Shown here: positions 14,323 to 15,335 of the stretch, one piece after another
Position numbering within the stretch: the first letter of the stretch is position 1
How the letters are laid out: every line of letters begins with the position of its first letter
Assembly: GCF_001447785.1 (NCBI RefSeq)
Contig: NW_015169174.1
Location: 647,729-711,728, forward strand
Length of the DNA: 64,000 nucleotides
Source: Gekko japonicus
Lineage: Eukaryota
Direction of reading: 5' to 3'
Notes under the pieces: generated by a model
Told to the model about the DNA's origin: nothing
Seen by the model: the letters and a program-made list of their open reading frames with translations, nothing else
Database searches by the model: none
Position numbers and translations under genes: made by a program

Positions 14323-14449
14323 CCAGAAAAGACACGCTCCCATAGATCTCCTGCATGACTTCCCTGTAGAGAGCTTTCTGGCTCAGATCCGGCAGGGCCC
14401 ACTCTGCCACAGTGAAATACACGGCCACCTCCTCAAAAGAAAATGGAGA
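14323..14449 (-). pseudogene. Orphan KRAB-A exon (KRAB zinc-finger gene relic)
   Basis: Exactly 127 nt, encoding [42 protein letters not shown]+G, followed by a GTAAG donor. The upstream polypyrimidine tract ends in CAA instead of CAG. Confidence 0.88.
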
Positions 14450-14652
14450 TTGAAAAGAAAAAGCAGAGATCAGGGATCATGCCAGGCAGGGACTACACAC
14501 TCGGCGGGGGTATTTCGTGAGGGTGCAGGATGTAGAGCTTGGTATGTGTAAAAGCAGTGCTGTTCAGAGCCTCTCTTCCTCAGAAAGCGGGAGGAAAACT
14601 GTCCCTGAGAAAGAAGTGTGGGCCCTGGCTATCCCCTGTTCATCCCCCCTAC

Positions 14653-14723
14653 CTGGATCAGAGGTCGAGCAGCCGTTTCCACTTCTCTGAAAAGAAAACT
14701 ACTTGATAACGTCTCTTCGCTGC
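14653..14723 (-). pseudogene. Pre-KRAB linker exon of the same relic
   Basis: tttgtctcccttgcag|71 nt|gtaggg, phase 1 to phase 0, encoding (G)SEETLSSSFLFREVETAARPLIQ. In frame with the KRAB-A exon and resembling the linker exon that precedes KRAB in squamate SCAN-KRAB genes. Confidence 0.65.
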
Positions 14724-15335
14724 CTGCAAGGGAGACAAAATTGGAAGGAGGGATTTTAGCCATAAATTCCTATTTGTTTGTTTGTTTGTCTCAATCCTGC
14801 TTACACATCCCCACTCCCTGGTTTCTGAAACCTTGTCTTCTTTACACTTAAGCAAATTTGTAATAACTTTTAGTAAACTGTGGGAGTGGTGGAAGAGAAG
14901 CGCCAGGTCTCCATGAGCCTCGGGAGGTTATAAATGCTGCCGACACATTTCAGACTTCTGTGAGACTTGGAATGTGCCCTGAAGCGCTAACGGTTGCAGC
15001 ATACCTGCTGGATCAGACCAAAAGCCCAGGCATGATCTTCTCACACCTGCTGGGCCTTCTTACCCATCCTGGAGTCCAGAACGATAGGAGGAAAAGAGGT
15101 GACCAGAAATCACATGGCATGATACGTTGTCATCACATCCAGCCCTAAACCCGTGTGATTTTATCGCAATAGCTGATCTTCTGGGAACTCTAGCAACGAA
15201 TGTGTTTCCAGAGCGTCTGCTGATGCTCTGACTTCACATCCAGGTATTTGGCTGGACAAGGCCACCACCCCGGGGCTCAGGGAGGTGGGGGGACGTTTCG
15301 CGCCGCCCCCCCCCCCCCCGCGGGCTGGGCGGGAA

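What the first reader, a model, noticed from the sequence alone, without database searches (positions are those of the whole stretch)
14323..15067. Orphan KRAB module (ATG exon end, linker exon, KRAB-A exon) with no zinc fingers, between PGAM1 and RRP12
Seen: on the minus strand a strong-Kozak AGG-ATG-G|GTAAGA donor (15067-15064, phase 1), an intact 71-nt exon (14723-14653, phase 1 to 0) and a stop-free 127-nt KRAB-A exon (14449-14323, phase 0 to 1) join in one frame: [67 protein letters not shown]. The KRAB acceptor is CAA rather than CAG, but an in-frame GAG lies 18 nt downstream behind a long pyrimidine tract. No C2H2 array is visible between it and PGAM1. Known: 127 nt is the canonical KRAB-A exon size and KRAB recruits TRIM28/KAP1; I do not recall a KRAB gene at the human PGAM1-RRP12 interval. 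Inference: an intron-containing (DNA-level) fragment of a squamate SCAN/KRAB-ZNF gene landed here, either as a young pseudogene or as a KRAB-only micro-gene driven by the GC-rich sequence next to the gap at 15336.
Basis: partly seen in the sequence, partly recalled or inferred. Interest (0 to 1): 0.7.

Follow-up and report, generated by a model that had tools for sequence, protein, structure and literature searches.

The report
Transposon carrying a zinc-finger repressor piece
The lone gene-silencing (KRAB) exon is real, but it is a damaged, likely silent passenger inside a jumping DNA element that likely copied part of a zinc-finger gene and scattered it to at least eight places in what is likely a gecko genome, a kind of gene-piece transport well known in plants but seldom reported in vertebrates.

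Summary
The KRAB-A exon, linker exon, frames, CAA acceptor and lack of zinc fingers are confirmed. It is not an orphan micro-gene. The stretch 15260-13740 is cargo in a non-coding DNA transposon: long repeat-filled inverted ends (terminus at 16529), 8-9-bp target duplications (9 bp with at most 1 mismatch in 8 of 18 end pairs, 0 of 304 controls) and insertion beside CpG islands. Eight dispersed loci hold this intron-containing zinc-finger fragment; the six with the KRAB exon differ by 3-6% and form one clade, about 10% from SCAN-KRAB-ZNF cluster genes. One copy has both ends and a perfect 9-bp duplication. The 'ATG exon' is parental intron; the 'GC-rich promoter' is the element's 171-bp repeat. 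The window copy is decaying: CAA and a Leu-to-Pro change at a KAP1-contact residue are private, the right end is lost, and 0 of 111 RNA reads carry its allele. A sister copy appears transcribed and spliced but has stops. Best reading: a multicopy Pack-MULE/foldback-like element in a vertebrate; no transposase partner found. The scan found other gene-capturing transposons on other DNA of this genome.

The parts
16510..16529 (-). Terminus of the TIR element (starts GGGAC); 63 exact 23-mer copies of this end in the genome
16300..16509 (-). Subterminal short tandem repeats of the foldback-type arm
   Evidence: 88-95% to other family arms
15508..16299 (.). Nested repeat-derived piece shared with a subtype of the element (L069, L080, L086, L089 at 87-95%)
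15336..15507 (.). Assembly gap of 172 N, likely in the element's ~171-bp tandem array (inferred)
15257..15335 (-).
13740..15260 (-). Captured fragment of a SCAN-KRAB-ZNF gene, introns included
15062..15067 (-). ATG and cryptic donor in parental intron sequence; not an ancestral start exon
   Evidence: no reads or joints here
14653..14723 (-). 71-nt linker exon, splice sites intact
14450..14452 (-). Broken KRAB acceptor CAA; AG in all 11 close relatives checked
14323..14449 (-). KRAB-A exon; private Leu-to-Pro (14391) at the position of ZNF93 Leu21 and Ala-to-Ser (14332)
13735..13747 (-). 8-bp target site ATTACAGT and first five bases of a hAT-like insertion shared by four sister copies; the window copy breaks off here

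Best explanation
The KRAB exon is passenger DNA inside a non-coding transposon with long repeat-filled inverted ends, likely of the Mutator/foldback type, which likely captured part of a clustered SCAN-KRAB zinc-finger gene once and was then copied to several places, where the copies, including this one, are decaying and likely make no protein. Shown: element end and arm repeats upstream of the module; 8-9-bp target duplications in the family; one cargo-bearing copy with both ends and a perfect 9-bp duplication; six KRAB-bearing copies in one clade; private lesions in the window copy. Inferred: capture began in the intron after the SCAN-side exons (so no promoter or start codon) and ran through linker, KRAB and zinc-finger exons, probably by template switching during repair or replication of an element near the cluster; a hAT-like MITE entered the KRAB-to-finger intron before most of the spread; an unidentified transposase moved the element in trans, preferring promoters; the window copy later lost everything beyond 13735 (finger exon, right end, target duplication) by deletion.
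For: Terminus at 16529 and 63 exact ends genome-wide, 0 for the reversed control pattern. Of 18 end pairs in 60 fetched loci, 8 have a 9-bp duplication with at most 1 mismatch and 10 with at most 2; 0 of 304 crossed pairs reach 1; 2 more pairs have 8-bp duplications. Copy C9464:125,492-116,499 has both ends, 9-bp duplication AGTGCAAGG, linker exon, part of KRAB and fingers. Six KRAB copies differ by 3.2-5.6% and are split from cluster genes (9-14%) with bootstrap 100; two more loci carry the finger part at 96-97%; two further elements share its 3' non-ZNF filler, one (C520) with both ends and an 8-bp duplication. Introns are kept, flanks differ. Family ends sit near CpG-island-like DNA in 12 of 26 flanks against 6 of 148 and 9 of 119 control windows (Fisher p 1e-7, 1e-5). 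Element ends also lie inside the C1809 cluster. Exons diverge like introns among the six (4.3% vs 4.0%), 5 of 6 KRAB copies carry a stop, truncation, deletion or lost acceptor. At 14391, 111 of 111 raw RNA reads carry the non-window base.
Against: The window copy has one end only and no second copy of its flank 9-mer was found, so its own arrival by transposition is inferred. Of eight ZNF-bearing loci only one has both ends; two (C8944, C10565) show no ends in the DNA held. The window's left arm is of another subtype than that of the complete copy and each copy has a different left junction, which repair-driven copying would also give. No transposase with these ends was found. No parent closer than about 9% was found among the 40 best candidates scored per search. 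The exon-versus-intron test is weak: cluster genes give 9.1% vs 9.9%. RNA runs were read to 3-12% only, tissues unknown, and the best DNA holder shares only 0.36 of the words, so their organism may lack this copy.
Confidence: 0.8

Rival explanations
1. The cargo reached this spot without a jump: an element already sitting here broke and was repaired from a cargo-bearing sister copy, pairing in the 171-bp repeats and leaving by short homology at 13735. The cargo still comes from the same transposon-borne lineage.
For: Left arm matches a subtype (L069, L080, L086, L089) that the complete cargo copy lacks; 4-base shared sequence at the left junction and 5 shared bases at the right one; no target duplication for this copy. 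Gap filling is the main route to single-copy Pack-TIRs (PMC8277862, abstract and passages).
Against: No right end or arm repeat of a resident element remains downstream. The copy is as far from its sisters as they are from each other (3.5-4.1%), with no closer template.
Confidence: 0.12
2. The window copy works as a KRAB-only micro-gene or as a KRAB exon spliced onto the PGAM1-like neighbour, using the downstream AG.
For: Frame is open through three pieces; the shortened KRAB still scores; the KRAB donor is phase 1 on the same strand as the neighbour's phase-1 first intron (read); a sister copy is spliced in one run.
Against: ATG piece is parental intron; acceptor loss and Leu21-to-Pro are private; no joint from 15064 or to 14431 and 0 of 111 reads with the window base at 14391.
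Confidence: 0.04
3. The copies are plain segmental duplications or retrocopies, and the transposon arms are coincidental neighbours.
For: Two of eight loci show no arm.
Against: Introns kept; flanks unrelated; arm repeats abut the cargo in six loci; one copy is bounded by both ends and a 9-bp duplication.
Confidence: 0.04

Closest known systems
Ssk-FB4, a multicopy Pack-MULE of Drosophila melanogaster (PMC8277862; abstract, section 9 and passages read)
   Same: Non-autonomous foldback-type element with long repetitive TIRs, 9-bp target duplications, unknown transposase, intron-containing gene cargo, several dispersed copies.
   Different: Ssk-FB4 holds a nearly whole, possibly functional gene; here a vertebrate, 5'-truncated KRAB-ZNF fragment, at least eight copies, all examined but one damaged.
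Multicopy vertebrate Pack-TIRs, e.g. Pack-hAT-N8_XT with 291 bp of CAPSL 5' UTR (PMC8277862, passages)
   Same: Host DNA inside a TIR element, amplified by transposition.
   Different: That paper found four multicopy cases and no Pack-MULE in 100 reference genomes; its only squamate hit in the supplement search was anoCar2 with 0 Pack-TIRs. Here the cargo is multi-exon, several kb, and the duplication is mostly 9 bp.
Plant Pack-MULEs (as summarised in PMC8277862 passages; MULE features from PMC6446971 passages)
   Same: 8-11-bp duplications, long TIRs, insertion near genes, captured fragments, frequent internal rearrangement.
   Different: No MULE transposase is tied to this family; PMC6446971 lists MULE presence in vertebrates as an open question.
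Merlin elements (PMC8101967, passages)
   Same: GG termini, 8-9-bp duplications, internal tandem repeats.
   Different: No IS1595/Merlin transposase match in this genome.
KRAB-transposase fusions such as KRABINER (10.1101/2020.05.07.082677; search listing and start of abstract only)
   Same: KRAB exon and DNA transposon brought together.
   Different: Opposite direction: there the host gene captures a transposase by splicing; here the transposon carries off the host KRAB exon and encodes no transposase.

Membership tests
KRAB-A domain | Pfam PF01352 above cut-off | tested here: met
   59.7 bits vs 20.4; ungapped alignment to ZNF93 KRAB, 7z36_D
KRAB-A domain | KAP1-contact residues kept (ZNF93 Val9, Ile11, Phe13, Leu21, Tyr29, Val32, Met33, Asp8) | tested here: not met
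   Leu21 is Pro in the window only; Asp8 is Glu in most relatives too. Binding itself not tested.
KRAB-only gene | Own start exon, canonical splicing and transcripts from this locus | tested here: not met
   ATG is in parental intron, acceptor CAA, no window-allele reads; RNA sampling shallow
Non-autonomous TIR DNA transposon | Inverted ends plus target-site duplication in dispersed copies | tested here: met
   the window copy itself keeps one end only
Mutator/MULE superfamily | 8-11-bp target duplication | tested here: met
   9 bp in 8-10 of 18 pairs, 8 bp in 2
Mutator/MULE superfamily | Long TIRs, here internally repetitive (foldback type) | tested here: met
Mutator/MULE superfamily | MULE transposase with the same ends | tested here: inconclusive
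   7 PF10551 loci exist but none has this family's ends in 9-20 kb around it; PF20700 search uninformative
Mutator/MULE superfamily | Insertion near gene 5' ends | tested here: met
   12 of 26 vs 6 of 148 and 9 of 119; own CpG-window definition, best-scoring ends only
Merlin superfamily | GG ends and 8-9-bp duplication | tested here: met
Merlin superfamily | IS1595-type transposase in the genome | tested here: inconclusive
   no match, fragmented assembly
Multicopy Pack-TIR / Pack-MULE | Host genomic fragment with introns between the ends | tested here: met
   C9464:125,492-116,499
Multicopy Pack-TIR / Pack-MULE | Several copies with distinct target duplications | tested here: inconclusive
   distinct flanks at all loci, but duplications visible for only one ZNF-bearing copy and one sharing only the 3' filler
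Multicopy Pack-TIR / Pack-MULE | Identified parental locus and empty site in an outgroup | not testable with these tools
   nearest cluster genes 9-14% away; no relatives held; no DNA-run comparison obtained

The most novel reading that the evidence does not exclude
A vertebrate Mutator-like transposon has captured a piece of the very gene family that silences transposons, and because it lands at promoters its copies are transcribed and spliced (one such transcript is seen), so it could act as counter-defence (decoy RNA or KRAB-only peptide against KRAB-ZNF/TRIM28 silencing) or as a route that seeds KRAB-ZNF genes outside their clusters.
Probability: 0.08. Interest if true: 0.85.

Novelty: new variant of a known kind. 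Interest (0 to 1): 0.5.

Why it matters
Tan et al. [quoted passage not shown] 2019 list MULE presence in vertebrates as open. A multi-kb, multi-exon, multicopy pack element with Mutator-like features in a reptile extends plant-style gene shuffling to vertebrates and gives a concrete, testable way for KRAB exons and zinc-finger arrays to leave their clusters and land beside promoters. The window copy itself is most likely a dead relic, which limits the score.

Tried and rejected
Retrocopy/5'-truncation idea from the shared 13735 boundary: rejected, the boundary is the start of a hAT-like insertion and sisters run on into the finger exon. CACTA/Chapaev or Helitron reading of the left flank: rejected once the terminus was fixed at 16529 and 9-bp duplications found. 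Transposase partner: PF10551 gave 7 loci with other ends; PF12762 and PF20700 gave none. Target duplication for one-ended copies: none next to an end for the window, C5535 or C8337 (one isolated exact 9-mer 21 kb away in C8337, no end beside it). Source of the GC-rich piece inside the complete copy: only 69-71% matches, unresolved. No listed holder run is on record as RNA; not used as evidence. No comparison with DNA runs was obtained, so whether CAA is fixed, whether the insertion is polymorphic and whether KRAB splices to the PGAM1-like exon 2 remain open. Literature: no paper held all of KRAB+Mutator+gecko; some searches listed only reviews or unrelated papers; the library lacks most subscription journals and Repbase/Dfam entries were not searchable, so the element family may already be catalogued. 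Tan et al. supplements were searched for six terms only. Scan look-ups by sequence and nearby place gave nothing. Structure prediction and protein database searches were not used: they would not bear on the question.

Full report
Observation. The exon is a KRAB-A box (Pfam E 2.1e-16; ungapped match to ZNF93 KRAB). No C2H2 pattern occurs in the six frames of the window. Neighbour genes (PGAM1-like, RRP12-like) and the host (likely a gecko, from its repeats) are named from recall, not from a database call.

It is not alone. A DNA search of the own genome with 13900-15335 (40 candidates scored of 1415) gave five other places at 92-96%, introns included, on 1.2-2.4-Mb contigs, then genes at 84-89% on contigs C1809, C6827 and C24323, then many at 70-78%. 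C1809 is a tandem cluster with six finger ORFs of 13-23 fingers and SCAN motifs upstream of four KRAB exons. The six close copies differ by 3.2-5.6% in substitutions, form a star-like clade and are separated from the cluster genes (9-14%) with bootstrap 100 (16 sequences, none dropped). Three of them still hold a decayed finger exon. A search with the finger-exon start added two loci at 96-97% (C10565, C2803), and one with the 3' filler added two elements without ZNF DNA (C10075, C520).

The vehicle. Upstream of the module the window has part of a ~171-bp repeat (15257-15335, beside a 172-N gap), a nested repeat piece, short subterminal repeats and a sharp end at 16529. The same end occurs inverted downstream of the cargo in sister copies. 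An exact 23-mer of the end occurs 63 times in the genome, the reversed control 0 times. In 60 fetched loci 18 end pairs were found (some spurious, none dropped): a 9-bp duplication with at most one mismatch in 8 and at most two in 10, against 0 and 2 of 304 crossed pairs; two pairs have 8-bp duplications; no other length stands out. The copy at C9464:125,492-116,499 has both ends, a perfect 9-bp duplication and the cargo between them; C520 has both ends and an 8-bp duplication but only the 3' filler. Of the eight ZNF-bearing loci, one has both ends, three have one end (window, C8337, C5535), two have arm repeats only (C17307, C2803), two show none (C8944, C10565). Ends lie near CpG-island-like DNA in 12 of 26 flanks against 6 of 148 and 9 of 119 control windows; the window end is about 0.9 kb from the RRP12-like start and the C17307 copy lies just upstream of a PICALM-like first exon (name recalled).

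Superfamily. Long repetitive TIRs, 8-9-bp duplications and promoter-near insertion fit Mutator/foldback elements (PMC6446971 passages; PMC8277862 section 9). Merlin fits the GG ends and duplication length too (PMC8101967 passages). The genome has seven MULE transposase loci, but none carries this family's ends; Merlin and PF20700 searches were blank. So it works like a Pack-MULE; membership of MULE is likely, not shown.

Anatomy of the capture. In the cluster gene read through, SCAN is followed by one exon about 1 kb upstream of the captured region, then the 71-nt exon and KRAB. The GT itself is kept in 13 of 14, so a rare cassette use cannot be excluded. The cargo thus never had a promoter or start exon. 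Left junctions differ between copies; the window's has 4 shared bases with the repeat unit. A hAT-like insertion with an 8-bp duplication sits in the KRAB-to-finger intron of four sisters and not in the cluster gene matched by the same pattern; the window keeps five bases of it and then switches to unrelated DNA at 13734. No right end or second copy of the flank 9-mer was found. Element ends also lie within the C1809 cluster, which makes local capture plausible (inference). At about 2% per lineage the spread would be some millions to tens of millions of years old (rate recalled, rough).

Is it alive? The window copy has 17 private substitutions at sites where all covering sisters agree, among them the acceptor change, Leu-to-Pro at 14391 and Ala-to-Ser at 14332. 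The Leu aligns with ZNF93 Leu21, reported as a conserved KAP1 contact required for silencing (PMC9753469 passages). Of the five sisters two have a stop in KRAB, one is cut after 17 codons, one has a 3-nt deletion, and one (C5535) keeps intact linker and KRAB exons without a finger exon. Exons and introns diverge alike (4.3% and 4.0%), a weak test because cluster genes behave the same. Three raw RNA runs (3-12% of each read; 370 reads laid, 1 of them at least 99% alike) and one contig run were laid on 13600-15335: 111 of 111 reads at 14391 and 8 of 8 at 14332 carry the non-window base; no joint from 15064 or to 14431 is listed; three reads join the linker to KRAB at the normal acceptor with a paralogous first base. 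Against a simple 'all silent' view: the contig run holds a piece running from the 171-bp repeat into the intron with 6 of 8 variant bases and the 2-nt deletion of copy C8337, and a KRAB-to-finger splice whose finger start matches C8337 alone among the four starts my pattern found. So a C8337-like copy seems transcribed and spliced, though in this assembly it has a stop in KRAB, an 11-nt deletion in the linker and a stop 96 codons into the finger exon. Caveat: the runs' organism shares at most 0.36 of the words and may be another strain or species, or lack this insertion.

Comparison. Closest is Ssk-FB4 of Drosophila; in 100 animal reference genomes the same study found four multicopy Pack-TIRs and no Pack-MULE, and no gecko or KRAB/ZNF term appears in its main text or searched supplements. 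My searches found no paper on a KRAB-ZNF-carrying Mutator-like element, within a library that lacks most subscription journals and repeat databases. Earlier notes of this scan report other gene-capturing transposons in this genome; I did not check them.

Verdict. Real KRAB exon, wrong frame of reference: a decayed copy of a multicopy pack transposon (0.8), repair-built variant of the same (0.12), functional micro-gene or fusion (0.04), plain duplication (0.04). New variant of a known kind; interest 0.5.

Noticed in passing
L127:949-2319 (G000:C3394), L129 (C10630), L128, L130-L133: Seven MULE transposase loci on 0.3-1.7-Mb contigs; L127 has an open 457-aa FLYWCH+MULE frame (Pfam E 6e-9 and 9e-11) between ~70-130-bp inverted repeats of another family. 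[quoted passage not shown]
   Followed up: partly
window 50830-51863: A second, cargo-free remnant of the same element family (end at 51863, subterminal repeats, 171-bp repeat piece, gap 50933-51207), likely inside an intron of the RRP12-like gene; no target duplication found.
   Followed up: partly
L011:3340-9720 (G000:C8337:73.3-80.5 kb): Sister copy that appears transcribed from within the element's repeats and spliced KRAB-to-finger exon in one run; it lies just downstream of a CpG-rich promoter-like region.
   Followed up: partly
L012:4680-5070 (G000:C5535): The only sister with intact linker and KRAB exons and splice sites, a right end, and no finger exon: the better candidate for a KRAB-only product than the window copy.
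   Followed up: partly
window 13057-13166 and L015:6386-6495: 110 bp are 100% identical between the window and copy C17307, where they border an assembly gap, while the rest is about 96%; likely a gap-filling artefact.
   Followed up: no
window 14323 and 4767: The KRAB donor (phase 1) is on the same strand as, and frame-compatible with, exon 2 of the PGAM1-like gene; no evidence for such a splice, and it was not tested directly.
   Followed up: no
L067:1014-1625, L086:5820-6146, L088:752-1104 and 1561-1795, L111:789-1061: Interior segments of complete family members not shared with other fetched loci; possibly further captured host DNA.
   Followed up: no
L080:4431-9332: A retrotransposon-like insertion with long open frames (DIRS-like by recalled motifs) nested inside a family member.
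   Followed up: no
window 13354-13708: Small inverted-repeat element with a 3-bp duplication (PIF/Harbinger-like by recall), high copy in the genome, just beyond the break of the cargo.
   Followed up: no
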